Shown here in pieces: positions 14,345 to 60,078 of a stretch of DNA of 64,000 bases. Both the position numbers and the translations under genes were made by a program. This DNA comes from Cycas panzhihuaensis. Its lineage: Eukaryota; Plantae; Cycadophyta. The notes under the pieces were generated by a model. The model searched no databases. It had not been told where the DNA came from and saw nothing but the letters and a program-made list of their open reading frames with translations. The stretch is taken from the NCBI GenBank assembly GCA_023213395.1, contig CM041465.1, positions 225,253,741 to 225,317,740 on the forward strand, given 5' to 3'. Within the stretch, counting starts at the first letter, position 1. Each line of letters opens with the position of its first letter.

Positions 14345-14741
<397 letters not shown>

Positions 14742-16629: not shown

Positions 16630-16738
16630 ATGGGGTTGTTGGATAAGCTGTGGGATGATATTGTGGCCGGCCCCCAGCCAGAGAATGGCCTTGGCAAGCT
16701 TAGAAAGAGTGCTACAATGGGTACGGCGTCTTCTCCAG
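16630..16738 (+). CDS. DRM1: DRM1/ARP exon 1
   Basis: ATG at 16630, MGLLDKLWDDIVAGPQPENGLGKLRK..., donor GTTAGT at 16739. Confidence 0.93.
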
Positions 16739-25892: not shown

Positions 25893-27670
25893 GTGGTATC
25901 ATAGTTGAGTTATAGATCATCTGAGGCAACAAAATAAGATCAGGGGAAAGCAAGAAAAGCAAAAGGAGAAAAAATTGAGGTTTTTTTTTTGTTCTTTTTC
26001 TTTGTGAAAATTTATAAATTATATCCTTCACATTATTTTTTATTAATTGGTTATGTTATAAAATTTTGAATCTTTGTAACAAGTTGTAAGTGGGCAACAA
26101 ACCCTCACCTGTTTTCCCTAGCTCTTAAGTAAAGACCTTGTGTTGGGGGTTTTTAAAAATCACAGGGGTTTGTCATTTCTGGCTATGTGTATGTAAATAT
26201 ACACTCGTGTGTGAAGTAATGTGGATAATACTATTTACACATGTTTTAAATAGAACCTAGCTACGAAATTGTGGCTCCACGCACCTTAGGATATATTACA
26301 GGGTCCTTTTCAACTTCTTTTGTATTACTTAGTTATAGAGAAATTGTCGGTTGCTTGCCTTATATAGTGCATTGTTTAGCAGTGCGTGTTAGGAAACTAC
26401 TCTTTTTGAACATTTTTGCATGATTTTTCATGGTTACAGTTTTGTAGTTAGTGCTATGAAATATTGTCCTGACTATAAGTAACTATAAAAAAGTTTATTG
26501 AAAGGCTTGTAGAATCAGGTAATCCTATGTCTGAATTGGTAGGTTACTTTCTTACATCAATTATTGTTGTTACACTCAAGTATGTTGAGACTATTGTACT
26601 TTGCACACTAACCACTATACTTGTGAAAAATATTAAATTTGCGACATCCCTACATATCAAGTAACATAATTAAACCACATAATTTTAGAATACAGTGATG
26701 ACAACAAATTTGAGAATATCGACAACTTATATTATAGAATCATCCAAAACATTTAAAGGCTTCTTGTCTAAACCTTTAGCCTAGTTTCATAGGATCATTT
26801 CAAGAAATATCCATCTCATTTAGATGAAATCTGTATTAGTAGATTCAAGATAGGAAAAAAAGGAGTATCGGGCCAAAAGTTTACTCTAGTCACATATACA
26901 TCTTATTTTAATTAGCGCCTCATGCAAAGCATTTTAAACTAAGTCATTTTTAATCCATGTTTTTAATATAAAATAATTGTTGGACCCGACTAATTGAAAA
27001 ATCACACATAATTTCACTAGCATCACCTTGATGAGCTTATCGCACTCGTCACAATGCACTAAGTTAGATTATTACTAAATTTTTTGGGAAAGCAACCTAT
27101 AGTCACCTTGTTCAAGCATATTTGTATTATGGAGGCCAACATGGTATAAATACTTCTAAAAACTTCGTTCTTATATGTATCACTCCCCAGTCCTTTAATT
27201 CCTTTTTGTCTACCTATTTCCCCTTTTGTGAAACACCCTTCTTTTAGATCTATTCCATTTTTCTTAATTTTCTTTCACACTTCTTGCAACACTAGATTAT
27301 TCTTCAATGGCCCCCACACAGGCTGATCACATCTATGAAGTGTTAAGAGGCATACTATGAGGGAATGCCTAAAAGCATAGTGAAACTATAATAGGAAGTA
27401 ACAAAGCTAAGGTAGAACATACAATAGAGACAAGATTTGAATGAACCACTGGATAGAGGATGACATGGACCACAAACTTGATAAGATACTCTAATAACTA
27501 GCGACCAACGATGATAACACGTCCACCTCCAGCTCAAAGGGCCCCTCACCACCACCTACTCGATTATTACCTTCTCCTTCATTAAGGTAGTTAGAGTTCA
27601 ATCATAAGATTGTAGTCTCAACTTTTGACCCTGATCTCAGTAAGGATTTTTCACGTAGTAAGTTAGAGTG

Positions 27671-30453
27671 TGGAGTCGCATCTGCGGGATGGTCACTATG
27701 CTTAATAGGAATTGAGGTGGTTAACAGTTAAGGCTGGGGGTATGAATGGGGACCTATAAGCAAAAGGGAACACCACATAGGGCGTCTGTGCGCCAGAGCG
27801 CGAGTTCGGGACCTACGAATGGCGCCCAAGTACCTCAGAGTAGCTTTTAAATTCGAGAGGGAAGACATACGCAGGAGTATCCTGGATGTTCTCAAAGAGG
27901 GAGGTCCTCCCACCCTTGGATAACCGGAAGGGAAGAGGAGGAACCCTAGATGGAGAGGTTCCTATGGCAAAGGAACACAAGACAAAAGGGTATAGACAAG
28001 TGTATGTAGGCTTCCCTAAGCTAATTGGTTTAAGCAAATCTAACCAAGGGAATGAATAAAGAAAAGGGGCTAAGAGCTACTCTCTCTTTCTCTCTCTCTT
28101 TCATTCAATAACCAAAGGGTAATAGAAAAAAAGAGCAAGCGTCTTGTGTGCATTCAAGCAAGCAAACTAAGTGAAGTGCAACTATGAGTACTTTCAGGCT
28201 AGATAGGATAAATGGGAGGAATGCAGTCCCTACTATGCCCTTTTCTTATGAAGAACAAGTACACAACACATTTATGCAAAATAAATGCAAGTAGCTAATT
28301 TATTACCCTTTTTTGCTTTTATGTGATCTATTAAGCAAATGCAATAAACTTTAGATAGGAGCAAAAAAGGGAAAGGGATCAATGGAGAGAGACGATGCGT
28401 ATCCGGGAAGTGTAGCAGTTGATGAAGAACCTCACTTGTGTGTGACGTACGCCCTTTCACCTATAGTTGACGTGTAGCCAAAGTTGGTATGGAGAAACAT
28501 GGGTTTCCTTACCTTCCCCGTACAAAAAACAAAGCGAAGTGGGAAAAGCAAAGAAAGCGAGTAAACGTACTAAGAAACAAGCGAAGTAGAAGAGAAAAGA
28601 AGGGTGATGGTTTACCCAGAGCCGTACGTTCTTCCTCTTCACGGATGTTACTTCAAACCTGCATCCACAAGAGTATTTCCCTTCCAAGAAGGGGCTACAA
28701 GATACTATATAGGCAAATATATCATATGAATGCTAAAATTTTATATTTGAAGTTAGTATAACTACTACTGAAAATAATTCTGCTTTCCTCAAAATAAAAC
28801 CACGCATACCAAGCAAGAAGGGAAAGGGTAGCCTTAGGATGGAAAAACCCTCCGCTAAAGGCTCTCCACGCAGCCTCAAAACACGGCAAGGTCAAGGTTA
28901 TGCAATAGTCTATGGGCAGCAAATGAGCATGGGGATGAATTATACAAGATGTGGGAGAGACGCTTAGGTAACGAAGTCGCTATGGACAACGAATCGCCAC
29001 GCAAGTCTCACAGGAGGTCCAAAGGGATGCCGGACAAGATTAGGGGCATGGAGAAGGCCCAAAAGAGGGGCATGCAGTTGGAATCGGTCAGCAAGGGTCA
29101 CAGAGGCTGCGATATCCTGTGCAGGCCAGGATTCCACCCACTCCTAATTAACTTAAGGAAAGCATGGGCGCAAGAGAGGAAGGATGGGAAGGGGTCTGCC
29201 CTTGGGGGGTAGGCCTAATTGGGACGGATCCCACCTTACTCCCTTCGCATAATCCTTGTGAGCCCCCTCCCGTAGCTTTCTTGAAGAAAACCAGCGGAGA
29301 AATGGGATGGAAATCAAGGATACAAAGTCAAACAACAAGAAAAACAATCCTTTCTACAGCCAAAGGACAAAAGAGAAGAAAAAATATACTTTCAAGAGGA
29401 TCTAATGGAACAAATACATACTAAATCATGAAAATAAGGTAAAGGGTACCTGCTGGGCTAAGATGAGGGCAAATTTGCCCCTACAACCAGTAGAAGAGAG
29501 CAGGTCCTACAAGGTTTGCAGGGTATTTCTTAAAGTGGGGCTGTAGTAAACACTTGCTGGGCGAAGTTGAGGAAGAAACGGGGAGATCTTGCTTAGAAAC
29601 GCTTGGAGGAGGGTCTCCCATCATGAAACAGAGCTGCTACAGGTGGATCATGAGCTGGAATGACAGAAACGCAAAGTTGCAGGCGCACCTGTGAAGGAGA
29701 GGAGGAAGAGAGCAGAAATACAATAGTAAAGCGTGATGTTTGAGAGCCAAGAGATCTGAAATGATGAATTTTTTGGGATATATACTCATCCCAACCCTAA
29801 TCAAGCGATTAGGGTGCGAATGGCGCTGAATTGGTCACTTGTCCACGTGGCAATTCCACGAAAAAATCGAGAATTGCCACGGCGGATTAAAAAAATAAAG
29901 TGCAACAGTCGCACCGCAGTAATCTTTGTGGTACCGCTTAGTTTACAGCGGTGCGAGACCAAAAAGCCAAAATGGGAATGACCGAGTTTCTAGGAGCCCT
30001 AAAAGAGGTGTGACAGGCCTAGGAGGGGCTGGCCCCCCTGTCCAGGTGGCTAGGGACAATCCAGAAAGCATATGAACTAGTTCAAATGAGGCACCAAGAG
30101 CTAGAAATCCCAGAATTGTCGTGATGAGGACACAGGATCAGGGTATAAGCAGATCACACCAATTGAGTGAGGCCTGAGGTGACGTGGAGGTAGCGCGGAG
30201 GATCGTAGAGTGCCATGGGGATGCCTACCTTGCGGAAAGGTAGGTCATGTGGGTCGTCATAGGCTCACAATACGACGAGCAGCATGATCAAGCAATGGAT
30301 GCAAGGTGATCGTATAAATGTGGCAGTCAATCGTGCAATGGGGCAATGCTTCTATCTACCTTTTCAAAGAGACAGTAAAAGTGAAAAGGGAGAAGTATAC
30401 CTACGCTTACCTAAGTCGACCTGTCCATATCCATTCCCGATAGCCGGGAAACA
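27671..30453 (-). repeat. 3' LTR of the Tat element (2783 bp)
   Basis: TG...CA termini; 27 differences in the first 230 bp versus the 5' LTR (23 transitions), counted by hand. Confidence 0.95.
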
Positions 30454-30874
30454 CTGCCCCCTTGGCAGCAGAGCCTCGCCGCTCGGAAGCATGGTGCATT
30501 GGCGAATGTTGGCAACAAAAACTGTTAGTAGTACATGTATATATATCAATCATAAGCATAATAGGAGCCAATGGTGCCATCGAGTGTCGTGGCGGAACGC
30601 ATGGATACGAGGAAAAGGGTAGAGACGACATAGAGGTTGCCTATGCGTCACCCGGGAATCGACCGGAAGCTATGACGGATGAGGGGGATGCCTCCATCAT
30701 AAGGATGCAAAGAGAAAGTGCAATGGTGATATCAAGAGAAAGAGTAAATGAACAAACCTAATGGTCGCCATAATTTAACCTCATTAGCGGCTAGTTTTCG
30801 GAGGTGCGAGCGGATTGCAAAAAGAAATGCAAACTGGCTCGATACTTGGGTGGCAGGGCGACCATGCAAGTCTC

Positions 30875-31296
30875 TCAAGGGTGGTCAACCAGAAGAGGAA
30901 GGCGACGCTCAAGGATGAGACGAGCAATGATGTCTGCCTCGGTGTTGAGGGCCCGAGGGATGTGTCGGATGTCGATAGACTGGAAACAAGCCAATAGAGA
31001 CCTGGCTGTCGAAGCGAGGGCTCTCGGGTGTGGGTATTGCACCTGGTAAACTTGGGTGAGATGAGACACCACCACCTGGAGTCGCAAAGAAGAACAATAG
31101 ATCCGTGGTGAAATCAGAGTGCATGAGTAAGGGCTTCAATAACGGCCGTATACTCGACTTCGTTATTGGTGGCTTTGGGGAAGAAGATTCCATAACGTAG
31201 AAAATTATGTCCAGAAGGGTCACGAAGAATCCATGCGGCGGCGGAGGGGCTAGGATTACCGCGGCTCCTGCCATCGGTGAAGATAAAGAGAGTCAT
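30875..31296 (-). pseudogene. Stand-alone archaeal-type RNase HI in the 3' region of the Tat element
   Basis: MTLFIFTDGRSRGNPSPSAAAWIL...ATNNEVEYTAVIEAL...LLCDS/QVVVSHL...HIPRALNTEADIIA. All four acidic catalytic positions are present; one stop and one 1-nt frameshift. Confidence 0.92.
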
Positions 31297-31825
31297 GGAC
31301 GAGAAAGGAAAGTGTCTTGGTAGAGAAAATGTACAATCGAAGCAAAAGAGGCTCATATGGCAAGCAATGATGGCCGTGAAGGGTAGGAGGACCCAACAAT
31401 AAGGTTACCCGAGAACAAGAGTAGGCTATTCGACCACTGGTAGAGAGTAGGCGGTGAAAATGGCACCCGGAGATGCCAAAGGTTCCTTAAGAAAGTAAAG
31501 AATGATCCTGAACGGAGGGAGCGTTCCCTTTGGAGACCCCAGGGGCAGGAACGAGCTGCAAAAACAAGTCTAGGACGACGAAACGAGCCAAACGAGTATA
31601 AACTCGGGCATGCACAAGAGTGGCACGTAAAACGAGATAGAAGGGCCCTGGCAAAAAATGCATTGGTGAGGTGCCATTAATGCACCTGAAGGAGTGAGCA
31701 AAACAGAGTCTATGGAAGCGCAATGGGAAACAGGGCCAGAAGGCAATGATAATCGTGGATGAGAAACGGTCTCAAGGGCTGCCTCAAAAGTGAAAACGGA
31801 GAAAGTGCCTGTTGGGGCCCCTGCC

Positions 31826-31832
31826 TATATAA
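31826..31832. promoter_or_regulatory. TATA box (CTATATAAG) between the divergent aRH and PMD genes
   Basis: TATATA palindrome at 31826-31831, about 160 bp from the + ATG (31992) and about 150 bp from the - ATG (31677). Confidence 0.5.
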
Positions 31833-31991
31833 GGAAAACCGATGAAAATATGATTTATTTTCACGAGATCACGAACGAATCCAAAGCCATTTCCTTATGC
31901 ATCGGAGCACCACTCAACTTCGAGGCACACCGAAGGAGATCCGACTGTTGGATCGTGACCGAGAGACAGTTGTTGAGACCAGGACGACGAG

Positions 31992-34297
31992 ATGGCGACA
32001 ACTCGACCAGATCTAGTGAGTGGGTTGCCAAAACCCTATCCTATCTTGTGATTTGAAAGTTATTGCTTTTCATTGAATTTATGTAGTTTTTTGGGCCCTA
32101 CAAGGGTAAAGAATGATCTCCCGGAGTCCAAACTGGACCCAGAGGCGGGACCGGGGCATTAAGTAGTCCTGGTCCTAGTGGGCCCAACTGTGGCCCGCTC
32201 ATGAACAATTTTTGTGATCTTTTGGGCGGGAAACCCCCCTTTTTAGGGGGGTGATGTTCGCAACGCGGTAAAGATCAGGGTGCAGCGATCTTTGCCGCGA
32301 GGCCCCGATCGCCGCGGGACCCAGGCCAAACTCCGCGGTACCACGAAGTTTGGCGCGGTGTGAAGGCAGACCTTATGAAAAATAAAGACGGGGGGACAAA
32401 GGTCCCAAATCTCGACCAAATAAGGCCGAGGGACAATCCAGAGGATAGAGGGGTGAGCGTGAGTCAGAGTTTGACCAGTTTCATGGTGTTTTGCAGGCGG
32501 TGATCGCGGTGGAGAACCGCAAGAATATCGGTATGGCCATGTTCAGTTTTATCAAGATAATGACTCGTGAGGATAGGCAGGTTTTAACGAGGTGTGGCCT
32601 GCTAAAGGTCACAAGGACGCCTCAGTACACTTCAGACCAGAGGCTATTAGTAGATATTGTGTCTCATTGGGATAGACGGAGGCATGTCTTCTATTTACCC
32701 CAAGCAGGGGATGTATCGGTGACGCCGAGGGATATCCAGAGGATATTGGGGGTGCCGGCGACAGGGAGGCCATCATCACTAGGAGCACTGCCTAGCAATG
32801 AGGCAGTACACAGAGAGGCAGCGACATTCTTCACTGGCTCGGACAGATAAGAGAGGTGAGGGATACCTCTCCAGAGTATAGTCATGTCAGTGATTTCTCG
32901 TGTGAGGAAGTTGATTACACTATGCATTCTGTTCTGGATATCCCAGAAACGGAACTATAGGGACATACCGAGCGGTTGGATGGATGCGGTACAGAGATGT
33001 GAGGCTGGGGAGAGGCGAGATTGGGCTACCCTCATAGCGACGAACCTTGTCGGCCAGCTAGACGCTATTCAGGAAGTAGGGAAGGGTGGCCTATCATATA
33101 ACACCCTTTTACAATGTTAGTTTTTTGACCACTTTGGAGCAGTGGCGCCGACGGGGGGACCACACCCCATCTTTGAGTGGGTCCCCATGGTACATAGATG
33201 GCTGACTACGTTTAAGGGGAGCGAGGACCAGGCACACGTCCGGCATTCAGTGGAGGCCATATCATTGGACCTCCTCACCATGACTGACTATATATCAGAC
33301 CCATATAGAGCGGTGAGGTGGGATAGCGACGATGAGGCAGGCGGGGCAGGAGTGCCCCTAGGAGATGATGGTGAAGACAGAGGCGATGGAGGTAATGGGG
33401 TTGGCCCATTACGAGCTACAGGAGAGGCAGGTCCATCAGGGACTGCAGGTGGAGAGGCAGGTCCATCCAGGACCGCAGGAGGAGAGGCGGGCCCCTCAGG
33501 AGCTGCAGAGGAGAGTAGGGGCCCAGTGAGACGAGCCCAGAGGTTGCAGATTGTCAGGAGATCCGAAGAGGTAGCAACACCAGCTGAGGAGAGGAGGCAC
33601 GTCCCAGTAGTTGAGGCGGTGGACAAAGAGGTACCTGAGGAGGAGGAGGTACCTACAGCTGGTGGAGTGCCCGGGGGGGAGGCAGTCATCCGAGTCGAGG
33701 AGTCGGCGGCTACACCAGGTGAGACACGACCTTCTCCTGTCATCATTTAATTGCCAGATGTATATATGTTATTTGATTTTGATTTGGCATGTATATGGAC
33801 ATGTATTCACATGTGACGTGTTGGATTTGCAAGTATAGTAGATATCCAGATGCTGATAGAGGCGGTAGTCCAGGAGATGTTCAATCGGGCCTACGCAGAG
33901 GGGCAACCTCCCATCTAGGCAGGTGACAAGCCCAAATCAGCAGGTGCTTATACGGTAGCATTCGCCCCATTGGTGAGGGCGAGGGATGTTTGGATTACAA
34001 AGTCCTAGGAGAACGAAGCATGTGCAGGATGCCTTCACGCCGAGCTAGACACGACCTAAGCTGAGAGGGATGCCCTACAGTAGCCTGCAGTGCTCGGAGG
34101 CCTGTGGAGGAACTGGAGGGGATGTAAAGAGTCGCATCCAGCTAGCAGTGATGGAGGAGCATCTCTGGGGGATGGAGGAGAGGCTCCGCAGTGTAGAGGG
34201 TGATTGAGATCGTATCCAGGCCCGATACGATCGACTGGTAGACGAGGTGGCCTCGAAATCGTTGCAGAGCAGGACATATACAGGCGACGACCCCTAG
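31992..34297 (+). pseudogene. Spliced antisense Plant Mobile Domain (aminotransferase-like PMD; MAIN/MAIL-like) gene inside the Tat element: exons about 31992-32015, 32497-33718, 33833/33839-34297
   Basis: LLVDIVSHWDRRRHVFYLPQAGDVSVTPRDIQRILGVPATG, DWATLIATNLVGQL and LLQC*FFDHF match the PMD motifs LxxLxERWxxxxHTFxLPxGExTITLxDVxxLLGLPxxG, WxxxxLAxL and LLQxW. ORFs 32491, 32884 and 33142 are one frame broken by 3 point stops. Donors GTGAGT 32016 and GTGAGA 33719; acceptor TTTTGCAG ends 32496; phases are compatible. Confidence 0.85.
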
Positions 34298-35156
34298 GAG
34301 GCCACGGGATGAGGGTAGTAACGCGGAGAGCTCCTAGAGGCGCAAGAGGAGCCTAGGAGGTATGTGGTCCCCAAGAAAGGGATCACATAGGTCAGGAGAT
34401 GACGCCCCAGGTGCGGGACAACAGTAGAGTAAAGTGTAGGAGTTTTGTTTTAGACAAGGGAAAGCATGGACCTCCAGGGAGTCACCATATATAGTCACAT
34501 GATTGTACTCCTCCCTGCAAGGATTCTGACTTCCCACGGGTGATGTACCATACCAGTTGTATGATATGACACATGATAATTTTTAATATATAGACGGGGT
34601 GATTGATATCCCATTTGATGTATGATTATGTGTATCATAACATGTGATGGATGATGTGTATATTTATGTTTACATGTTTATATTTGTATGTGTACGAGGG
34701 TACACGGATGCACGAGGGCATGGTTGATGATATTTTGAGCTGATCATTGTATGATTTTTGTGTTATGATATTTGTTTGCACTATACACATTTCCTTTCAT
34801 GCATGGCCATATTCCTAGCAGAGGCACGCACGATCATCATGAGTAGCGACGATAGATACATGTGAGGCTAGGAGATATAGCAGCACGCATGTCCACATGG
34901 GAGCATATCGGGATATGCAAAGGAAATGCCAATAGGAGGGGAGTCACGACACTCCAGAGTGTCATCCTAATTGGGGGATGCCCAAATAGGAGGACGAGGT
35001 TCACAAGGGAATGGGAACAAGGGTTCCGCAGGAGGAACAAAAAAGGAACGAGAGGGCCATCCTAAGTCGTCATCCTGCCCATGGTCAAGGGGAATGGGAA
35101 CAACTTAGGATGGTAGTTTAGGCTCATTTTGGAGCATGGAAAAGACAATGAAGAAA

Positions 35157-36400
35157 TCATGTATAGAATTTTTTGAGGAATTTCGCGTTAACGGCTTTCT
35201 CAAATTCGAGGCCCTCTAGGGTGGCAATCCTATAGGCGCTGTTATCGAGACTCTCGAGAACGACAAAGGGACTGACCCATTTAGGTCTGAATTTGGTCAA
35301 GCGGTCATGGAGATATTCCAGCTTGAGGATGTGGTCCCCAGGATATAAAGGACGGAAATAAAGGTGTTTATCGTAAGTCCTTTGTGAACGGGCTTTGGAC
35401 ACGATGTTAGCTTGATAAATGACTAAACGTCTCTCATCCAAAGCCTCAAGATCTAGGAAACGAGCCTGACGGATAGACTCCTCATCGATAAGACCTCGTA
35501 GAGATGGGATATCCACTTCCAATGGGAGCACTGCCTCAGTCCCATAAACTAGGGAGAATAGAGTAATTCCTGTAGCCACACGGATAGATGTACGATAGGC
35601 CCATAAGACGGAAGGGAGCTGGAGGTGCCAATCTCTCTGAGATTGAGCAACAGTTTTCTTTAGGATATTGATAAGAGTTTTGTTGAATGATTCAACCTGA
35701 CCATTTGCTTGGGGGTAATAAGGAGAAGAGGTTTTGTGAGAGATCTTGAATTTCTCATAAAGTTCATCCATCTCCTTGCTACAAAAAGGGGTTCCATTGT
35801 CTATAATCAAGACGTCGGGAATCCAAAAGCCGCAAATGATATGTTGGTAGATGAAAGTAGCTATCGTCTTACCAGGGGTAGTGATCAAGGGAATAGCTTT
35901 CGCCCATTTAGTAAAGTACTTTGTGGCAGTCAAGATGAACTTGTGCTGTGACGAAGAGGGTGGTGATATGGCCCCGATGAGGTCTAAACCCCATTGGGCG
36001 AAGGGCCATGGAGATACGATGAGGTGAAGAGCCTCGGAAGGCATGTGGGAGATGTTGACGTGCTCTTGGCATCGTCGATATCTTAAGGTGTAGGCATGGG
36101 CATCCTTGAAGAGGAACGGCCAATAATAGCCCATACGAAGGATCCTTTGGGCCATGGACTGGCCCCCAAAGTGGCCCCAACAAATGCCATGGTAGCATTT
36201 GCGAAGTATGTGGTCTGCTTTGTCAGGAGTGACGCAACGGAGGAGGATCCTATCAAAAGATCTCTTGTACAATACTTCCTCCATAAGGAAGTATTACCTC
36301 GTGGTGGTCTAAATGCGTGACCTAACCTTGTTACTAGCTTTTGGGCGATACTACTGCTGAGTAAGGTACCACATGATGTCACCATACCACTCACTATCAA
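35157..36400 (-). CDS. Tat integrase (ORF 35157-36284 open)
   Basis: YHGICWGHFGG...GYYWP...CQEH; WPFAQWGLDLIG; DNGTPF; SSPYYPQANGQVE; VLWAYRTS; VYGTEAVLPLEV; KFRPKWVSPF. Confidence 0.95.
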
Positions 36401-39400
36401 TGAGTGGATGGGAAGGAGTGCCCTGAATAGTCAAGATAGACTCATCAGGAAGGGAGTCGTCAACGGGGACGTCGAACGAGTTAGGGACAGGGGCATCTGC
36501 AAACTGTTCCGCCACTACCATCCTTTTCTTCTATTTCCTGTTGACGATGTAGAGATCGAATTCCTGAAGGAGGACGGCCCAACGGCCAGCCCTACCGTCA
36601 GGTCGGAACAGATGAGTAAATAACACAAGGGATCAAATTGAATGATCACCTTGGTAGTGTTTCCAAGCAAGTAGTGCCTAAACTTCTTGGTTGTATGAAC
36701 CAAGGAGAGGCATTCCTTCTCAGCTAGAGAGTAATTGAACTCGGCAGCCATGAGGGTGCGACTGATGAAGTAAATAGCCTTCTCGACTCCTAAATCATCC
36801 TCTTGGGTCATCATAGCACCCAAGGACTCATCAGTCGTCGAGGTATAGGATGAAAGGCCTATCAAAGCGAGGGGGCACCAACGTCGAAGCGGAAGCAAGG
36901 GCTTCCTTAAGTCCTTCGAAAGCTTGTTGGGCATTGGCTGACCAAACAAACGGGGCTCCCTTCTTTAATAGGTTAGTAAGGGGCTTGGCGTTCACGGAGA
37001 AGTTTGCTAGGAAACACCTAAGGAAACCGAGTCGACCTAGAAATGACTTGATTTGTCATTGAGTTCTAGGTGGAAGCATGTCAAGGATTGCCTTGACTTT
37101 GTCAGGGTCGATTTGGATTCCTTGTTTCGACACAAGGAACCCAAGGAGTTTGCTAGAAGTGACGGAAAACACATATTTGAGTGGGTTAAGACTTACGTGG
37201 TACTTGCGGCATCGTGTGAAGATGGACCGCAAGTCCGAAGGGCGATGGACTCTAACGCGCAAGAGACCTATCATGTCATCCACAAAGACCTCCAACGTCT
37301 TATTGATAAGGTGGTGAAAGATGAAATGCATCGCCCTTTAGTAAGTGACGCCTGCATTTTTCAGTCCAAAGGGCACCGCTTTGTAGGCAAAGGTACCCCA
37401 CGAGGTGGTGAAGGCCGTCTTGTGACGGTCTTCGGGAGAGATTTGAATTTCATTATAACTGGAGAAGTTGTCCATCAAGGACATGACTTCAAACCCGATG
37501 GTTCGATCGATAATCTGATCGATAAAAGGGAGTGGGAAATTATCCTTAGGACATGCGTTGTTGATGTCACAGAAGTCAATGCATATCCAGATAGTCCCGT
37601 TCTTTTTAGCAACGGGAACGATGTTAGATACCCATTTAGGGTAGTCAATGGAAGTGATGAGTCATGCGTCTAGGAGTTTCTCAACCTTTATTTTGACGGC
37701 GGCTGAGAGTTTAGGATGAAGTGAGCATTATTTTTGGTGCACGGGACGAGCGCCAGGAACGGTGGTAAGGTTATGGCTGACAATGGAGGGGTCGATTCCC
37801 TTCATGTTAGAGTAGTCTCACACAAAAACATCTCGGAACTCCTGGAACAAAAGGGAGTATTCCCTTACCTCATCAGGAGAGCATTCTGCTCCCACCTTAA
37901 TGACCTTACCTGGGGTGAGGACTACGTCTTGGGTTGCCCCCATGCACATGGCATTCCCTTCCTCGAAATGAAAGGGGGCAAGGTTAACAGAAGGAGATGG
38001 AATAGGAGATGGGATTGGGTCAGCGATAGTGGACCCAATCGCTAAGACCTTCCGGTGACCAAGTTTATGGTGACTAGAAGGAAGGTTGGGCACAGAGCCC
38101 ACTAAGTGCTTAAGTAGAGCTTCATCATATTTGAAGTAATCTACCCCTTGGATGACCTTACTTCGAATAGACGAAGCGCGAGAGGACATGGTAGCAATAC
38201 GACCATAGTGGTCAACAAGCTGCCTAATATCCCCAAAAGACTCCAAGGAAGAGTCGGGAGGGGGCCCCTCATAAGGGGAAAAAGGAAGTTCCTTGGAATC
38301 GTCACCTGCGGGGGGTGACGAAGAGGAAGAGTCAAGGATCGGTGGATCAATGCGTGCAATAACATGTGATACGAGGGGATGGTCGGTCTCTCCAATGAGA
38401 GGAGTTCTAGGTTGGGACCTAGAACAAGGAGAGTGTCGCCTATTAGTGCGAAGGAAGGAAATAGGGTGAGGAAGGTCCTCGTCCTCGCCATGGGACTCGT
38501 CGTCACTAAATATAGCAAGGTACCCATAGCTTCCGACACCAATATGAGCGAAACAAGTAAGGCTCGAAGAAGATGCGCTATCTCCTTCGGAATGAGATGG
38601 ATCAGGAATACCGATGGAACAAGTCGAGGCATGGGTAGAAGGGCCTTTATCCCCCTTCACACGACCATGGCTCACTTGGTTGGTTTGACGATCTTGTTTA
38701 ACAGGTGGGCATTCGCGGGAAACAACCCTCATTCGCCTATCATGGACGAACTTGAGTTGCCCCCAATGGGTCGAACACATGACTCCCATTTGATCGAGCC
38801 ATGGTCGACCCAAAAGGATATTGTAGTCGATGTCTACGTCGAGGACTACAATATCGGCGAGGATAGTCTTGTCCTAAAGAGTGAGAGGGATTGAAACGAA
38901 TCCAAATGGAGTCTTCTCGTTACCATCGTAGCCTTGGCATCGCCATGGAATAGGTTCCAAGGCGGAAATGCCAAGCTCTTGCATAACGCGCAAGGGCATG
39001 GCATTAACAGAAGAACCATTGTGGATAACGGTCCTTCACAAAGTACAATCAGGTGTATCGATAATAATGGTAAAAGGGAAGTTCCACTCATGTTGCCTTT
39101 TACAAGCAGGAGGAAGGTCTTTAGGATCAAAGAAAATGACAAGCTCACGACCTTGTACAATACCCAAAGCATGCGTCCAGCGTGAACAAGCACATCACCC
39201 AATCCTAAAGCTTCTAAAAGGAGTGTTCGTTGTTCATAATAACTTCTCAAGACGTCCATAATGGACATCCCGGCGGCCACGGTACAAAGCTCATCGACGA
39301 CAGAAAAGGACTTCCCCTTCACTGTAGTTTGAGGGAGGACTCTCCTGAAATCGTAGCGACCTGGACGAACGTGAATGGTCTTGGGAAGTAAAGGGACTTC

Positions 39401-39500
39401 CAGGAGGGAAGTTTCCAGAAGAGGATTAGGATGTGGAACAGATGAAGAGGCGTTGATTGCCTCTTTAGTAGCTTGAGACTGAGTCAAGGCATATAGAGGG
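36400..39500 (-). pseudogene. Tat pol: protease, RT, native RNase H (frameshifted)
   Basis: Protease RTIVDNGSSVNAMP (about 39030) and ILLGRPWL; RT FQEFRDVFV, EVFVDDMI, LNPLKYVF...KLLGFLVS; RNase H SLGAMMTQ...YFISRTL...NYSLAEKECLSLV...KKFRHYLLG. No aRH within pol. Confidence 0.92.
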
Positions 39501-39779
39501 GTGGCCTCAAGCATCTGGATCACCTTCTTTCCCTTATTCTAGGACCACGAAGGTGAAGGGGTATGATGGTCTGGGGAACGCGAGGAAGAAGATGAACCCC
39601 CCGCGCCCTTCCCTTTACTGTGTGAAGGGTGTGGATTTAGAGATCTCCCTCGGTTCTGGTTGTTCTTTGGTTAAGAGTTACGATCACACTCCCCATGCTT
39701 GGGGAATGGATCCCTATGGACCGATTGGTCGAGGTTGGGCCTTAAGGCCCGTTTGGGAGATGAGTCATATTGTGAGACA

Positions 39780-41750
39780 TCCTTAGGAAGTTGAACCCGA
39801 CAACACAAGTCGTCATGGAAACATTCTCTATGAACGGAGCACCACTTCTTCTCAAGCGAGGAATCAGATTTCCTTGCTTGAGAGGACTGGGTGCTGCCGC
39901 CCTTGGAAGGAGCGACTTAGGAAGCTTGTTGGATTGGTTTGTTGGATGTGGGTGATGAAGGAACTTGAAGTTTAAGTTCCTCCATCGTATATTCGAATGA
40001 ACATATGGCAGAGGTAAGTGGGTCTAGAGTCTTCTCAGTTGAGTGGGAAGAAGACCTAGTGGATTGTTGAGGTTTAGTTTCTTTGGTTGGCAAGGGTCCC
40101 TCACGTAGCTGTGAAGGCTTAAGGGGCTTCTTGAATCCAGCCTGGATCTCAATAGCTTCAAGTGCCAAGCACTTCGCGATGGCGGAATCACATGTGGTTG
40201 CCCCCATCTTAAGGACTTCCATATGGACTTCAGGGCGTAGTGTGTTGACAAAGATATCCCTCTTCAATTCCTTAGGCAAAGTAGCCTTGGTAGAATGGAG
40301 GAGGTTGTGGAATCGCCGCACAAAGTCACGATTCATCTCATCGTGACCTTGCTTGAGCGAAAGGAGAGATTTCATTCCACTCTCAAAAGGACGGGTCACA
40401 TCAAAATAGTTGATGAACTCATCCACGAGTTGTTGGAATGAGAAGATGGAATGAGCATAGAACAATTTGAGGGCATCGCCTTGAAGAGATCGTGAAAATA
40501 GTTTCATTAATATGTGATCATAGGCCTAGTAGTCTATGCATGCCAAAGATAAACTACGAACATGCGTGCCATAGAGAAACTACGGACATGCTCTGTTGGA
40601 TCTTGCGATGAAGTTCCATCAAACTTGGGAACTTCGAGGGGATGAGGCGGTAAGTTGGTTCTTAGCGTCTCGATAGATAAAGGCGTCGATCTGTAATCCA
40701 TAAAGGGACGTGCCCTCGCCTAGATCATAGGATCGGCAAAAGACAAAGAAGGTAATGAACAAGGAGCAGATGGGGGTGGAAGGCCCATCCCTCCTTGAGG
40801 AAATACCCCTTATTGAAAAGGGACTTAAGGACAAGCGCCTTGGAAGGAAGTTGGGTGTCCTTGCGAAGGCGCGGTGTAAGGAGCTACGCAAGATGGTGGA
40901 AATGAGGGGTGAGGGACTAGGTTTTGTCCATATGGACGGCCCGTGGGTGGCGCGACCCCATAGGGATGTAAAGGGTCCACCCCATAAACCGGAATGTGGT
41001 TCCCTTTACCATGCCCCCAAGGCTGAGATGTATAGCCTGGAGATACGTAAAGAGAAGGACCACTAGGTTGGGTTGGGGTGTATGTGGAGACAGATCCCAC
41101 ATGACTAGCAATAGAAGCGTTAGTAGGACCTCTAGGCCTACTAGGGAATACGTGCGCCACATTAGGAGATGGCATGTTAGCTTGACTAGGGAAAGGTATG
41201 CTAACCCGAAGCTGGGAGAAAGACATACTACGAGAGGTCCCCAAAGAGTTGGGGTCGTGATGAGAAGTAGAAGGTGCAATGGACATCTCTAGGGTAGATG
41301 TAAAGATCGAACAGGACATATGCATGGGCACAAAGGGGTTACTTATTGTAGGAGGTGTAGATGTGGATGAAGACGGTGGGGCAGGCGCAGATGAGGAAGG
41401 TACCCCACCACGCAAGGCATCTTCAAACCACTTAAGACGTGATTGAAGGCAAGCAACACGAAAGCACTCGTTAAGGACTTCAACCATGTCGATGGGAGGG
41501 GCATCCACCTGATCGTAAGAGGTAGATTGGACCTCAAACGAAGTGGACCCCTTAGGACGTTCCTCGTAAGAATCACCACCTGGGTGATGAATCTCAAGAG
41601 AAGAGGGATGGACATCAAGTGGGTGTTATTGATCACCCGGATAGTAGATAGGATCATCACCCTCTTGGGTGGACCCCGGAAAAGATGTGGGGAACTCATG
41701 AGTTCTGGAAGCAAAGGCATGGTATGCCCAATCCGAAGGGTATCCTTCCA
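39780..41750 (-). pseudogene. Tat gag (Pro/Ser-rich N-terminus, capsid domain, zinc-knuckle trace)
   Basis: MKLFSRSLQGDALKLFY...SFQQLVDEFINYF...LLSLKQGHDEMNRDFVRRFHNL...FVNTLRPE (ORF 39917-40507). Confidence 0.88.
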
Positions 41751-41987
41751 TTGTCAAATTAGAATCCAATGATGGAAGGAAGTGGTATGTAGGATATTCT
41801 AACAACAGAGGCAAACCTCATAAGCGAAGTGAGAAGCGTCGCATACAAAACTTACCAATGCGTTCAGAGAGAAAAAAGAATGTAAAGTATGCGTTGGGGG
41901 ATGCCCAACGAAAGAGATAAAGGGAGAAAGTTACTAAAATGTAGTAGCACCAACAGAAAGAGATAAAAACTAGCTCCCTTACTGGCA

Positions 41988-42007
41988 GGTCCCCAGTATG
42001 GTCGCCA
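41988..42007 (-). other. Primer binding site, tRNA-Arg-like
   Basis: TGGCGACCATACTGGGGACC lies 1 nt inside the 5' LTR end. Confidence 0.8.
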
Positions 42008-42008
42008 A

Positions 42009-44813
42009 TAGAGTCACGTCTGCGGGATGGTCACGATGCTTGATAGGAATTGAGGTGGTCAACAACTAAAGTTGGGGGTATGAATAGGGACCTATAAGCA
42101 AAAGGGAACACCACACAGTGCATCTGTGCGCCGGAGCGCGAGTTCGGGACCTGCGAATGGCGCCCAACTACCTCGGAGTAGCTTTCAAATCTGAGAGGGA
42201 AGACACACGCAGGGGTATCTTAGATGGTCTCAAGGAGGGAGGTCCTCCCACCCTTGGATGGCCGGAAGGGAAGAGGAGGAACCCTCGATGGAGAGGTTCC
42301 TATGGCGAAAGAACACAGGACAAAAGGGTATAGGCAAGGGCCTAAGATAGGCGTAGGCAGGCTTCCCTAGGCTAATTGGTCTAAGCAAATCTAACCAAGG
42401 GAAGGAGTAAAGAAAAGGGACTAAGAGATACTCTCTCTTTCTCTCTCTTTTTTATTCAACAACCAAAGGGCAAGAGATAAAAAGAGCAAGCGTCTTGTAT
42501 GCATTCAAGCAAGCAAACTAGGTGAAGTGCAACTATGGGTACTTTTAGGCTAGATAGGAGAAAGGGGAGGAATGCAGTCCCTACTATGCCCTTTTTCTAT
42601 AAAGAACAAGTACACAACACACTTATGCAAAATAAATACAAGTAGCTAATTTATTACCCTTTTTGCTTTTATGTGATCTATTAAACAAATGCAATAGACT
42701 TTAGATAGGAGCAAAAAAAGGAAAGGGGTCGATGGAGAGATGCGATGCGTACCTGGGAAGTGTAGTGGTTGATGAAGAACCTCACTTGTGTGCGACGTAC
42801 GCCCTCTCGCCTATAGTTGGTGTGTAGCCAAAGTCAGCGTGGAGAAATAGGGGCTTCCTTACCTTCCTCGTACACAAGACAAAGCGAAGCGGGAAAAGCA
42901 AAGAAAGCGAGTAAATGTACCAAAAAACAAGCAAAGCGGAAGAGAAAAGAAGGGCAAAGGCTTACTCGGGGCCGTACATTCTTCCTCTTCATGGATGTTG
43001 CTCCAAACCTGCATTCACAAGAGTCTTTCCCTTCCAAGAAGGGGTTGTAAGATACTATATAGGTAAATATATGATATGAATATTAAAATTTTATATTTGA
43101 AGTTAGTGTAACTACTACTGAAAATAATTCTGCTTTCCTCAAAGTAAAACCACGCATACCAAGCAAGAAGGGAAAGGGTAGCCTTATTATGGAAAAATCC
43201 TTCGCTAAAGTCTCTCCACGCAGCCTCAAAACACAATAAGGTCAAGGTTATGCAACAGTCTATGGGCAGGAAATGAGCATGGGGATGAATTATACGGGAT
43301 GTATGAGAGACGCTTAGGTAATGAAGTTGTTATGGGCAGCGAATCACCACGCAAGCCTCACCAGAGATCCAAAGGGATGTCGGACAAGATTAGGGGCATG
43401 GAGAAGGCCCAAAAGAGGGGCATGCAGGCCTGGAATCAACGCAGCAAGGGCTGCGTACGCTGATATCCAACGCAGCCCAGGATTCCACACACTCCTAGTT
43501 AACTCAAGGAAAGCATGGGCGCAAGAGAGGAAGGATGGGAAGGGGTCTGCCCTTGGGGAGTAGGCCTAACTGGGATGGATCCTGCCTTACTCCCTTCGCC
43601 CAATCCTTGTGAGCCCCCTCCCACAGCTTTCTTAAAGAAAACCAACGGAGAAATGGGATGGAAATCAAAGGATACAAAGCCAAACACCAAGAAAAACAAT
43701 CCTTTCTAGAGCCAAAGGACAAAAGAGAAGGAAAAATACACTTTCAAGAGGTTCTAATAGAACAAATACATACTAAATCATGAAAATATGGTAAAGGGTA
43801 CCTGCTGGGCTAAGATGAAGGCAGATTTGCCCCTGCAACCAGTGAAAGAGAGCAGGTCCTACAAGGTTTGCAGCGTATTTCCCAAAGTGGGGTTGTAGTA
43901 GACACTTGTTGGGCGAAGTTGAGGAAGAAAGGAGGAGATCTTACTTGAAAATACTTGGAGGAGGGTCTCCCACCATGAAACAGAGTTGCTGTAGGCGGAT
44001 CCTGAGCTGGAACAGTAGAAAACGCAGAGTTGCAAGCGCACATGTGAAGGAGAGGAGGAAGAGAGTAGAAGTACAATAGTAGAGTATGATGTTTGAGAGT
44101 CATGAGATCTAAAATGATGAACTTTTTGGGATATATACTCATCCCAACCCTAATCAAGCGATTAGGGTGTGAATAGGGCTGAGTTGGTCACTTGTCCACA
44201 TGGCAATTCCATGAAAAAAGCAAGAATTGCCACGGCGGATTAAAAAAATAAAGTGCAACAGCAGTAATGCAGAACTTCACTAATCTTCACAGATCGCTTA
44301 GTTTACAGTGGTGCAAAACCGGAAAACCAAAATAGAAATGGTCAAGGTTCTGGGAGCCCTAAAAGAGGTGTGATAGTCCTAGGAGGGGTTGGCCCCCCTG
44401 TCCAAGTGGCTAGAGACAGTCTGGAAGGCATATGAACTAGGCCAAATAAGGCACCAAGAGCTAGGAATCCCAGAAATGTCGTGATGAGGACACAGGATCA
44501 GGGTATGAGCAGATCACACCAACTGGGCAAGGCCTGAGGTGACGTGGAGGTAGCGCGGAGTGTCGTAGAGTGTCATGGGGATGCCTACCTTGCAGAGAGG
44601 TAGGTCTCGTGGGTCATCATAGGCTCACAATACGACGAGCAGCATGATCAAGCAATGGATGCAAGGTGATCATAGAAATGTGGTAATCAATCGTGCAATG
44701 GGGAAATGCTTCTATCTACCTTTCCAAAAAGACAGTAAAAGTGAAAAGGGAGAAGCATACCTGCGCTTACCTGAGTCGACCTATCCATATTCATTCCCGG
44801 TAGCTGGGAAACA
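42009..44813 (-). repeat. 5' LTR of the Tat element (2805 bp)
   Basis: Collinear with 27671-30453; TATA-like TATATA near 44132. Confidence 0.95.
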
Positions 44814-45329
44814 TAGTGCCACTTCTACTTGAATTCTATGTTCTTAATAGACCAAATAACATTTTCCTCAATCCATTTAGATGGGAAAACACACCATTGA
44901 TTCCACTAGTCGCAACATTAGAACCCATCCATCCAAACATGGGTTTAATTCTGTTAGAGATTTTTTGAACAATATGAAGACATATAACGAACCTATACCA
45001 AAGTCAGGAGTATCTAATAGTAAGGAAAATGTGGGATTGGATAGCTTAGCAATAAGATAATATAATAATATGGTGGTCGTCTTATAAATATGGCACCTTT
45101 ATCTTATGTAAGGCATCTTGATATATTTATGAATATTGACTCATTAAGTTCACTTCGGTGCTCCTTTGGTTATTTTGATATATTTATGAATATTAACTCA
45201 TTGAGTTCACTTTAATGCTCCTTTGGTTCTCTTTTTGGTGATATTTACATCTTCTGGCAATCTTCCAACTTTGCTCTCTTGTTATTATGGTTACAAGGTT
45301 TGGCCTGTAACATGACATTTGGAACATCT

Positions 45330-45508: not shown

Positions 45509-48500
45509 TGAAGGGTGTGGGAATTCATCCAAACTCCAACTCAGGTTCAAATCTCATAGAGCATTAATATAATATTCACAAATATTTAAATAGAAGACAA
45601 TGTGAGGAGATTGAATTTGTCAATTCTCCAACTATTAAAACATTTCATTAATCACTCACCGAAGATTACATTACATCAAAATACTAAGCCTCATATATAC
45701 ATTCACTTTACAATTACAAAAGAGGCTTTTGGGAATATGAAGGGTTGATCATGTAAGGTGACATTTGACATCTTGTATGATCAACTTACATAGACGTTAC
45801 AATGAGGTGTGAACAAAATGACCTCACATACTTAGGCTCAAAACTTCATGTTGTAACTTAATACAAACATGAGACTAATACCCTTGCAATATATTAACAT
45901 TATTTTATATCATAAATGTACATTATATTAAGAAAGATTAAAGAAAATTAATAAAGTCAACATTAATTTTTCTATCACTCTCCCTTAATGATGAGTTCAT
46001 TAATTTTACTACCGAGGCTAAGTTGAAACTGTTCAAATTTACTATGAAAAAATGCTTTAGTGAAGATATTTACAATCTATTTATTGGTCAGTTTATAAAC
46101 CAAATAGATCTCACCATTTTGAACATGCTTCTTGATGAAGTGATGGTGAATCTCGATATGCTTTTTCCTGATATAGAACACATGATTCTTAGTCAATTTG
46201 AGAATGCTTTGATTATCATAAAAGAGAGTATAGCTTGTGTTTGATCAATGCCAAGCTCTTCAAGAATTCTTTTAAGATAGATAGCTTTAGTAGCTATACT
46301 AACTACTGTTTTGTACTCTACTTTGGTGGAAGATAAGGTGACATTTAGTTGCCTTTTATAACTCTAGGAAATAGAGGTAGACTCAGGCTAAAAGAGTAGG
46401 CTAAGGTCGATCTATGACTATTTTTACATCTAACCTAATTAGCATATGTGTAACCTGCCAACAGAAGATTGTTTACTTGGCACTAATCAAGTCCAAATTA
46501 TAGTGAACCTCAAAGATATCTTAGGATCCGTATAGCTACATTCCAATGTGATATTTTGTGTTGAGTCATAAACCTTGAGTAGATCTCAACATCGTATGAA
46601 ATATCAAGTTAAGTATATATAAGGTAAATTAGTTTTTTCACAAGCTGCCTACACAAAGTAGAATCTACAAGTTTATCATGTTCATCAATGTCCAATTTTA
46701 ATCTAGTCTTCATAAGAGTTAGTGATGGCCTGTATTCCTCCATTTTAAATTTCTAAAGGATCTTTCTTGTATATTTGGACTATGAAAGGAAGATGTGGCC
46801 TTGCAACTCCCTAACTTCTATGCCGAGAAAGTAATGAAGCAACCTGAGATCAGTCATCTCAAAATTGCTATTTAATTTTCATTGGAGGTATGAAATCCAC
46901 TCTGTGTCATTACTTATTATCAATAAATTATCAACATATAGTATGGCTGAAGTGATCAAATTATATCATATTTTAATATACAAACTTGGATTCAAGGATA
47001 AGCATACAAGTCCATGCGTTTTAAAGTACTCATCTATTTTTGTGTACGAAGCACGAGGTGACTACTTAAAACCATATATAGCCTTTTTAAACTAGCAAAT
47101 TAGATGTTCTTTTCCATAAAAAACATAGTTAAGATATTGATTTATGTATACTTCCTCTAAGTTGCCATTCAAGATGATACTTTTTATATCTATTTAAAAC
47201 ATAGGTCAATTAAATTTAACTACTAAGACTAAAATAAGCTTGACAGTGTTCATGCTAGTAATAGAGGTAAATGTGTCCCCATAATCAATGCCCTCAATCT
47301 ATTTAAAACCTTTGGCAACTAAACGTGCTTTGTAATGTTGAATGGAGCCATCTACATGATTTTTTGTTTTGTAAATCCATCTGCAATTAATAGGTTTCTT
47401 TCCTTTAGGTAACTCAACCAACACTCAAGTATTATTTTGCAAAATGCAATACGTCTCTTCATTCATATTGGTTTGCCACTTTTGATCTATAATAACTTCT
47501 TCAAAAGTGGTAGTTCATGAGCTCGTAATACTTCTACCATTAAGGCAAAGTTAATGGATGACCTATATTTAGATTACCTTAGTCTGTTATGGTGGTGATG
47601 GAGTAAAAGAGATCGTCTATAACTACCATTTAGGGAGTTGCTTTGAAGTGACCTCTTCTTGAACATCTTTTGAATAACTCATTGATGTGGATGTTGAAGT
47701 AGAGGCAGGAGGTGCAGGTGAAGTACTAGGTGCATATGATGTAGATGGAGACAATTAAACTGTAAAAATATTTTAAAGAATATGAGGTTTTGTAGGTTAT
47801 TCATCAAAGAATGAAAGTTGTGTCATATCTAGATCCTGGTTCTTTTTTGAAAAGATAACATCCTAAGATATCTACATTTACTTGGTAGAAGGATTATAAA
47901 GTTTATATGCCTTGCAGCCAGGTTGGTGACCAATGAAAATACATTTTCTACTTTTATCATCTTACTTCTTCCATTGTTCTTTCAGTATAAGTATATATGT
48001 TGTACAATCAGAAATACACAAATGTGAGATCATGAGTTTTTGACCTAATTAGGGCTCTTTAGGAATAATATTCAAAATAACCTTGGTTGGACTTCGATTT
48101 ATAAGGTAAGCAACTATATTAAGGGCTTTAGCCCAAAATTGAAGACCCAAATTTTTAGTGGAAAGCATGCCTTTGCTTCGTTAACCAAGGTCCAGTTCTT
48201 AGACTCAACAATTCCATTTTGTTGAGGTGTATAAGAAGCTGAGAATTGTTGTTTAATGCCATTATCTTTACAAAATTAAGTGAATTTTCTATATGCGTAT
48301 TCACCTCTATTGTCATAGTAAATGATTTTAATTGGCTTTCCAGATTCTAGTTCAACACCATGCTTAAATTCTCTAAATTTTTTAAATGTTTTCAATTTAT
48401 ACTTTAAGAAATAAATATAAAATTTATAGGAATAATTATCAATGAATGTAATAAAATATCAACAACCATTAAAAGATGCTTGCAATATGGGTCCACAAAT

Positions 48501-59834: not shown

Positions 59835-60078
59835 GCAAAAGGGCTTAATTAATTGTTTAAATGAATAGGTGCTATTGAACGGACACAATCTTCCATGAAA
59901 GGGGCCTAATATGCATATAAAATTGGTCCCAAATGTAATATAGACATCATTCATCTTTTATTAATCAAATATATGGTCTTTTGACTATTTTTACCTACTC
60001 AGCTGCTCTTGTGCTCACGTGTACTCTCTGGAATCTGGTGATTGGGTTTTGGTTACGAACAAGGTCTATAACATTTCC

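What the first reader, a model, noticed from the sequence alone, without database searches (positions are those of the whole stretch)
31992..34297. Intron-containing antisense PMD (MAIN/MAIL-like) gene carried by a retrotransposon
Seen: micro-exon ATGGCGACAACTCGACCAGATCTA (MATTRPDL) with donor GTGAGT 32016 joins in phase 0 to acceptor TTTTGCAG 32496. A 1.2-kb exon encodes the PMD and an acidic linker with only three transition-type stops. Donor GTGAGA 33719 (phase 1) fits TGCAA(<-TGCAG) 33832 or TATAG 33838, and leads to a coiled-coil-like tail (LHAELDTT*AERDALQ...MEERLRSVEGD). Inference: the introns survive reverse transcription because they are antisense to the genomic RNA, so this is a real gene with its own mRNA. 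The ORF track shows it only as unrelated fragments.
Basis: partly seen in the sequence, partly recalled or inferred. Interest (0 to 1): 0.78.

Follow-up and report, generated by a model that had tools for sequence, protein, structure and literature searches.

The report
Spliced antisense gene in Tat retrotransposon
A decayed plant jumping gene carries, on its opposite strand, a broken 'plant mobile domain' gene that likely has two introns and sits head-to-head with a stand-alone RNase H gene; both kinds of gene are known from this element type, but the likely introns and a possible shared internal promoter would add something new.

Summary
The element is a decayed 17.1-kb Ty3/gypsy Tat retrotransposon (27669-44813, minus strand; LTRs 88.8% alike). 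It has the known 'post-integrase' layout, with an archaeal-type RNase H (aRH) as a separate ORF (31296-30875), and is likely from a gymnosperm. The antisense PMD is confirmed (PF10536, E 1.2e-8). Antisense PMD ORFs in gymnosperm Tat elements were published in 2015, so the core is known; retrotransposon PMDs form PMD-A, not the MAIN/MAIL clade. The splice sites are present as described. Intron 2 is well supported: best donor of 216 GTs and the T-richest 114-nt stretch tested. Intron 1 and the micro-exon are moderately supported. No exact junction was seen in one possible RNA run, only two weak hints at intron 2. This copy is a pseudogene, and the tail is more broken than reported. Intron survival does not prove expression. 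That offers a testable answer to how a solo aRH is expressed.

The parts
27664..27668 (.). left target-site duplication (TAGAG; right copy TAGTG at 44814-44818, 4 of 5 alike)
27669..30453 (-). 3' LTR, about 2.8 kb
   Evidence: BLASTN 88.8% over 2807 nt to the other LTR; K2P 0.114
30454..30463 (-). polypurine tract
30875..31296 (-). solo archaeal-type RNase H (aRH) ORF, about 140 codons, with its own Met; one stop and one frameshift near 31078
   Evidence: PF00075 E 1.4e-7, PF13456 E 3.4e-7 and 5e-4; best PDB hit 4e19 RNase H1 for both halves; ATG located
31794..31864 (.). candidate internal promoter core with TATATAA at 31826, between the two divergent start codons (inferred)
   Evidence: motif; many family contigs begin matching at 31793/31794/31803 and 4 X24 contigs stop at 31864; not a copy of an LTR segment apart from one 18-nt match
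31992..32015 (+). candidate micro-exon 1 (MATTRPDL)
   Evidence: family contigs match to 32023 and then run loose (79, 68, 58 contigs)
32016..32496 (+). likely intron 1 (481 nt, phase 0; first 100 nt 38% T; stops in all frames)
   Evidence: relative P0006 is shifted by an indel upstream of the AG but keeps LQ|V
32497..33718 (+). exon 2: PMD (about 32614-33318) plus acidic Gly/Glu linker with an in-frame 30-nt tandem repeat (33420-33515); stops at 32848, 32857, 33118
33719..33832 (+). likely intron 2 (114 nt, or 120 nt to the AG at 33838; phase 1; T-rich)
   Evidence: weak X24 hints
33833..34420 (+). likely exon 3: helical, coiled-coil-like tail, broken by many stops and two frame changes; 3' end uncertain
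   Evidence: coiled coil by eye only
35157..36293 (-). integrase (H2C2 + rve); pol ends at 35157 with no aRH after it in frame
36614..37580 (-). RT and native RNase H; no aRH between RH and INT or between protease and RT
39917..40525 (-). gag capsid domain
   Evidence: PF03732
41989..42007 (-). primer binding site beginning TGGCGACC (tRNA-Arg type is recalled, not tested)
42009..44813 (-). 5' LTR

Best explanation
This is a dead copy of a very abundant Tat retrotransposon, likely from a gymnosperm, whose 3' region holds an antisense PMD gene that in active copies was likely transcribed from an internal promoter and likely spliced at two introns into a PMD-linker-coiled-coil protein. Shown: the element, its domain order gag-PR-RT-RH-INT-[antisense PMD]-solo aRH-PPT-LTR, the PMD match, the splice-like sites and the decay. 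Inferred: a promoter near the TATA at 31826; removal of 32016-32496 and 33719-33832/8; the introns are copied along because the packaged genomic RNA is the opposite strand, which the spliceosome does not read as these introns. The protein's most likely job, from what is known of PMD and VANC proteins and untested here, is a nuclear chromatin factor that binds the element's own DNA and counters host silencing. The same 0.7-kb spacer may also drive the solo aRH in the other direction, so that aRH would complement the element's RT in trans (about 35%).
For: PMD hit. Frame open in other copies at 64-85% identity (these are called ORFs, so open by construction). Donor 2 best of 216 GTs, and both donors in the top 5 of 216 for a T step. 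Intron 2 T-richest window; intron 1 has 10/9/4 stops in its three frames. Protein similarity to family members starts at the acceptor; P0006 changes frame just upstream but keeps LQ|V. Family DNA contigs match through donor 1 to 32023. In X24 (RNA is a guess), one contig stops matching at 33720, as a 33718/33833 join would give because both sides begin GT, and another begins exactly at 33833. About 42,000 contigs laid per DNA run. Solo aRH keeps D-E-D-D motifs by eye; 7 of 10 listed X24 differences in it are third-position (9 scored, the tenth by hand). INT groups with Pinus RH-INT proteins that lack aRH between RH and INT, 93/92. Antisense PMD in lineage III (PMC4408406) and solo aRH in Tat H/I (PMC10508981, PMC13468544). 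Grande gene23 has its own promoter and a nuclear product (PMC7264820). PMD-C resembles VANC (bioRxiv 10.1101/2024.09.27.615353).
Against: No exact junction among the joints shown (15 of 140; 15 of 29). The 33720 joint is marked 'between: not known', and X24 may be DNA. GT/AG letters in other copies could not be read directly (40 of 945 variant rows shown). Both intron-2 options are multiples of 3, so a decayed in-frame linker is possible. Most of intron 1 is not T-rich (23.7%), and AGs at 32086-32111 could close a shorter intron. Exon 2 has its own Met 13 codons in, so exon 1 is not strictly needed. The INT node is not starred, and the Pinus proteins could be structure #2 elements. The function is untested.
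Confidence: 0.68

Rival explanations
1. Ordinary unspliced antisense PMD eORF of the TatIII type. Translation starts at the Met near 32533 and ends at the stop at 33748-33750; the T-rich stretch is a 3' UTR, and the tail is a separate or decayed ORF.
For: No junction seen. An in-frame Met exists in exon 2, and P0142 is called from the equivalent of that Met. PMC4408406 describes lineage III eORFs as PMD alone, without a coiled coil.
Against: Family similarity extends upstream of that Met to the AG (P0006, P0003, P0005). The best donor of 216 lies exactly at the start of the T-rich island, and the frame resumes in phase after it. An X24 loose end before 33873 reads as a similar peptide in the exon-3 frame (translated by eye).
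Confidence: 0.17
2. Intron 2 is real, but the 5' structure differs: another first exon or donor, a shorter first intron ending at 32086-32111, or a 5'-UTR intron with translation from exon 2.
For: 35 of 102 upstream GTs have an in-phase ATG. The T-rich island covers only about 32016-32100, and the strongest T-step acceptors are 32104, 32111 and 32086. An out-of-phase ATG lies at 31897.
Against: 32016 is the single best donor upstream, and family contigs match through it.
Confidence: 0.12
3. For aRH only: it has no promoter of its own and is made by splicing of the sense RNA, env-style, from pol or the leader across the antisense PMD gene.
For: Pyrimidine-rich AGs with an open frame lie just before the aRH Met on the minus strand (31353, 31317), and a 4/7 donor lies late in INT at 35276. 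Sense splicing is known for Bagy2 and Ogre.
Against: That donor is phase 0, while both acceptors are offset by 1. aRH has a Met right at the domain start. No INT-aRH joint among the 15 of 29 joints shown for X24 on 30400-35300.
Confidence: 0.3
4. A one-off capture of a host PMD gene, with its introns, by this copy or a few copies.
For: Introns are typical of host genes; the nearest named PMDs are annotated Cryptomeria genes.
Against: The region is covered by about 42,000 diverged contigs in each of three DNA runs of three organism labels. Those named hits are only 22-27% identical. Antisense PMD is a lineage-wide trait.
Confidence: 0.03

Closest known systems
TatIII (Neumann 2019, PMC6317226) = Tat lineage III (Ustyantsev 2015, PMC4408406) = structure #3 'post-integrase', clusters Tat H (conifers) and Tat I (Cycas, Ginkgo) (PMC10508981, PMC13468544)
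   Same: Size 17.1 kb within 12.7-17.3 kb; 5-bp TSD; aRH downstream of INT and outside pol; antisense 3' PMD ORF; INT groups with Pinus proteins.
   Different: In the text I saw, no intron is mentioned and lineage III PMD is said to lack a coiled coil. The order INT - antisense PMD - solo aRH with divergent starts is not stated; PMC10508981 and PMC13468544 have 0 hits for PMD, antisense or intron. Their figures are not held and may show the order.
Ogre / Tat V antisense PMD-coiled-coil eORFs (PMD-A clade; PMC4408406, PMC5418596)
   Same: Antisense 3' position and PMD plus coiled-coil architecture.
   Different: Those elements have aRH between RH and INT, occur in angiosperms and are described as continuous ORFs.
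Maize Grande gene23 and Retand antisense ORFs (PMC7264820)
   Same: Antisense accessory gene between pol and 3' LTR; gene23 has its own promoter and a nuclear protein.
   Different: Different protein families; no introns reported. The review asks for a look at antisense and spliced transcripts.
Arabidopsis MAIN/MAIL1/MAIL2 (PMD-C)
   Same: Share the PF10536 domain.
   Different: Host genes of another PMD clade. The named angiosperm MAIN-LIKE hit covers only about 60 residues at 32%.
HTLV-1 HBZ (recalled; no call)
   Same: Spliced antisense regulatory gene inside an LTR retroelement.
   Different: Unrelated protein; retrovirus; driven from the 3' LTR.

Membership tests
Ty3/gypsy Tat, structure #3 / TatIII | LTR pair, PBS, PPT, 5-bp TSD, order gag-PR-RT-RH-INT | tested here: met
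   (protease by eye only; no Pfam hit)
Ty3/gypsy Tat, structure #3 / TatIII | aRH downstream of INT; none between PR and RT or between RH and INT | tested here: met
Ty3/gypsy Tat, structure #3 / TatIII | aRH of archaeal type with DEDD core | tested here: met
   best PDB hits 4e19, 4h8k, 3u3g ahead of E. coli-type RNase HI (that these are archaeal-type is recalled); motifs DG, NEVEY, CDS, EAD read
Ty3/gypsy Tat, structure #3 / TatIII | native RH catalytic core degraded (tether) | tested here: inconclusive
   PDB alignments weak (E 0.16-0.87) and a frameshift lies at the first Asp; the third Asp looks lost by eye
Ty3/gypsy Tat, structure #3 / TatIII | phylogenetic placement with Tat H/I references | tested here: inconclusive
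   INT tree 93/92 with Pinus RH-INT proteins; no labelled Tat H/I references held; RT tree not built
Ty3/gypsy Tat, structure #3 / TatIII | PBS for tRNA-Arg (64% of TatIII) | not tested
   PBS sequence seen; no plant tRNA set to compare
Ogre / Retand | aRH between RH and INT | tested here: not met
PMD (PF10536) | reaches Pfam gathering score | tested here: met
   34.9 bits against cut-off 34.9, E 1.2e-8
MAIN/MAIL (PMD-C) | falls in the PMD-C clade | tested here: inconclusive
   10-row quick tree keeps it outside the group with Linum MAIN-LIKE (93, unstarred); no Arabidopsis or PMD-A references held
Spliced, expressed gene | junction reads | tested here: inconclusive
   one run guessed to be RNA, contigs only; no exact junction shown, two weak hints
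Spliced, expressed gene | GT/AG conserved in other copies | tested here: inconclusive
   indirect support for donor 1 and acceptor 1; no full copies obtainable

The most novel reading that the evidence does not exclude
Post-integrase Tat elements carry a two-gene cassette on one bidirectional internal promoter. It makes a spliced antisense mRNA for a PMD-coiled-coil anti-silencing factor in one direction and a sense mRNA for a free RNase H, ending in the 3' LTR, in the other. This would explain how the solo aRH works, show natural antisense introns carried by a plant LTR retrotransposon, and push the PMD-coiled-coil architecture back to gymnosperms, where ORF finders missed it because of the introns.
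Probability: 0.27. Interest if true: 0.66.

Novelty: new variant of a known kind. Interest (0 to 1): 0.42.

Why it matters
Plant LTR retrotransposons 'generally lack introns', the named exceptions being sense introns in Ogre and EVADE (PMC12786077). Extra ORFs were surveyed as plain ORFs of at least 250 codons (PMC6317226), so spliced antisense genes would be missed or cut short. How a solo aRH works from a separate ORF is stated as an open question (PMC10508981), and the head-to-head layout gives a precise place to test it. The ancestry of retrotransposon PMD-A relative to host MAIN/MAIL is also open (PMC5418596); intron positions in a gymnosperm element would be a new character for it. The copy itself is a fossil, and all of its protein parts are known.

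Tried and rejected
No whole genome is held for the window. No RNA holder was listed; this is not evidence either way. The word-indexed search with the PMD found nothing. Viral contigs gave no PMD relative; the INT scan gave two distant elements (36% and 28%), of which L001 reads as Retand-like with aRH before INT. Metagenome contigs gave nothing with an alignment or a DNA pattern across acceptor 1. The AlphaFold model of exon 2 had pLDDT 34, so no fold search was run. No solved PMD relative at E <= 1. No Atlas look-alikes were obtained for the PMD, so that comparison stays open. Contig depths were not used to rank exons against introns, as the tool warns. Rejected: Ogre/Retand membership (aRH position); structure #2 (no aRH between PR and RT); promoter core as a copy of an LTR segment; intron survival as proof of expression. 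Earlier-findings look-ups by sequence, words and genome gave nothing relevant. Steinbauerova 2011 (Genetica) was seen only as a citation; it, the unseen figures and the unread supplements of PMC4408406 and PMC10508981 may bear on novelty.

Full report
Element. Self-comparison of the window gives a direct repeat of 2807 nt at 88.8% (27673-30453 and 42011-44813). Its ends, a 5-bp target duplication (4 of 5 alike), a PBS and a PPT define a minus-strand LTR element at 27669-44813, with LTR distance K2P 0.114. Pfam finds gag, RT, native RH and integrase on the minus strand, all broken by stops or frameshifts. Pol ends at 35157. There is no aRH between RH and INT or between protease and RT. An RNase H (PF00075, PF13456) lies instead at 31296-30875, 3.9 kb past pol and beyond the PMD gene, with its own Met and four acidic motifs. 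Both halves hit 4e19 best in the PDB.

Classification. A solo aRH after integrase is Tat structure #3, found in conifers (Tat H) and in Cycas (68% of its Tat elements) and Ginkgo (Tat I). The authors call it an open question how aRH works from a separate ORF (PMC10508981, parts 1-2 of 3 read; its text says 'upstream of pol', while PMC13468544, abstract and passages, says post-integrase, 3' UTR). REXdb's TatIII spans 12.7-17.3 kb, with 5-bp TSD and a reverse 3' eORF in 18% (PMC6317226, passages and supplement 3). An antisense 3' PMD eORF in gymnosperm lineage III, without the coiled coil of lineages IV-V, is in PMC4408406 (passages, section 5 and part 1 of the supplementary table). The nearest named integrases are from Cryptomeria and Ginkgo at 39-52%. 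In a 35-row tree (32 of the 120 listed hits chosen by hand, plus L001, L002 and the window), the window groups with Pinus RH-INT proteins at 93/92, unstarred. A gymnosperm host, perhaps a cycad, is an inference.

The PMD exon. 32497-33717 has 3 stops in 407 codons against 23 and 23 in the other frames and scores at the PF10536 cut-off. The profile-free search found 16 relatives at E <= 0.001. Eight short Logan-type ORFs among them, plus P0142 and P0143, are 64-85% identical family members; longer hits are 21-33%, three of them named Cryptomeria proteins. Family members read through each of the three stop positions, so the stops are damage in this copy. Three DNA runs each laid about 42,000 contigs on 31700-34500, mostly 80-95% alike: the gene is a family trait, not a one-off capture. 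An in-frame 30-nt repeat lies in the acidic linker.

Introns. Intron 2 is the stronger case. CAG|GTGAGA at 33719 is the only 6/7 donor among 216 GTs and ranks 2nd for the rise in T behind it. The 114 nt that follow are 39.5% T against 14% and 20% in the flanks, and 0 of 3717 other windows match that. The frame stops inside it and resumes in phase after 33832 or 33838. In X24, a contig-only run whose RNA status is a guess, one contig stops matching at 33720, as a 33718/33833 join predicts, and one starts exactly at 33833. These are weak hints: the joint is marked 'between: not known', and no exact junction is among the 15 of 140 and 15 of 29 joints shown. Intron 1 is moderate. Donor 32016 is the best of 102 upstream GTs, but a third of those have an in-phase ATG. 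Family contigs match to 32023 and then run loose (79, 68, 58 contigs). P0006 shifts frame just upstream of the AG while keeping LQ|V. Only the first 100 nt are T-rich, and other acceptors at 32086-32111 are possible. The tail after 33833 is helical by eye, passes through three frames near 34080-34140, holds at least 11 stops and runs to about 34400. This copy cannot make the protein.

The overlooked layout. The aRH ATG (31296, minus) and the PMD ATG (31992, plus) face away from each other, 695 nt apart, with TATATAA at 31826. Many family contigs begin to match at 31793-31803 and four X24 contigs stop at 31864, which marks a conserved island around the TATA. Two overlapping X24 contigs cover 31078-31615 and 31586-31860, so aRH adjoins this spacer in other copies too. 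Of the 10 aRH differences among the 40 of 461 rows shown, 7 are third-position (9 scored; 31026, left out of the script, is second-position by hand). That suggests selection on aRH, from few, non-independent contigs. A bidirectional promoter is an inference. Env-style sense splicing into aRH is a live rival: acceptors exist at 31353 and 31317, but the one late INT donor is out of phase with them.

Mechanism. Shown: anatomy and decay. Likely: an internal promoter, as for Grande gene23 (PMC7264820, parts 1-2 of 3), makes an antisense pre-mRNA that is spliced to PMD-linker-coiled coil. The introns are inherited because the genomic RNA is the other strand; this explains their persistence but does not prove expression. 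Speculative: the protein acts in the nucleus against silencing. The basis is the likeness of PMD-C to VANC and the anti-Polycomb role of MAIN/MAIL (bioRxiv 10.1101/2024.09.27.615353, passages), and the anti-silencing suggestion made for MULE-borne PMDs in PMC5418596 (passages). The latter places gypsy PMDs in PMD-A, apart from MAIN/MAIL. My 10-row quick tree is compatible with that but weak. The structure model was unusable.

Novelty. Nine paper searches turned up no report of introns in antisense eORFs of plant LTR elements, nor of PMD and solo aRH head-to-head. Term look-ups gave 0 hits for intron in PMC11963269, PMC13468544 and PMC10508981. PMC12786077 (passages) lists only Ogre and EVADE introns. 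PMC9289625 and PMC7156037 (passages) confirm PMD as a common gypsy passenger and MAIN/MAIL as PMD-C. The library lacks most subscription papers, Steinbauerova 2011 was not seen, and figures are not held. Verdict: known element type and known passengers, with a likely but unproven exon-intron structure and an undescribed divergent cassette; new variant of a known kind, interest 0.42.

Noticed in passing
window 30875-31296 (-): Stand-alone archaeal-type RNase H ORF head-to-head with the PMD gene; became part of the report.
   Followed up: yes
window about 16650-18200 (+): Host dormancy/auxin-associated (DRM1/ARP, PF05564, E 6e-15) gene, about 9 kb from the element.
   Followed up: partly
window 55695-60073: Small LTR pair (257 nt, 93%) 4.1 kb apart with a Ty3-type gag ORF at 58449-59090; possibly a short non-autonomous element.
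   Followed up: no
window 45509-52531: Older LTR pair (84%) with a copia gag remnant at 49570-49911 (-).
   Followed up: no
window 37818-38873 (-): About 250-codon low-complexity spacer between protease and RT that stays open; no Pfam hit.
   Followed up: partly
protein P0018 (Logan): A 94-residue unrelated N-terminus is joined to a PMD protein otherwise like P0008; perhaps a chimeric host-element transcript.
   Followed up: no
protein P0011 (Cryptomeria XP_057852934.2): Host-annotated protein with PMD, acidic linker and a coiled-coil-like tail, the same plan as the spliced product here; may be a domesticated or fused Tat PMD.
   Followed up: no
window 14327-14738: Palindromic AT/microsatellite block.
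   Followed up: no
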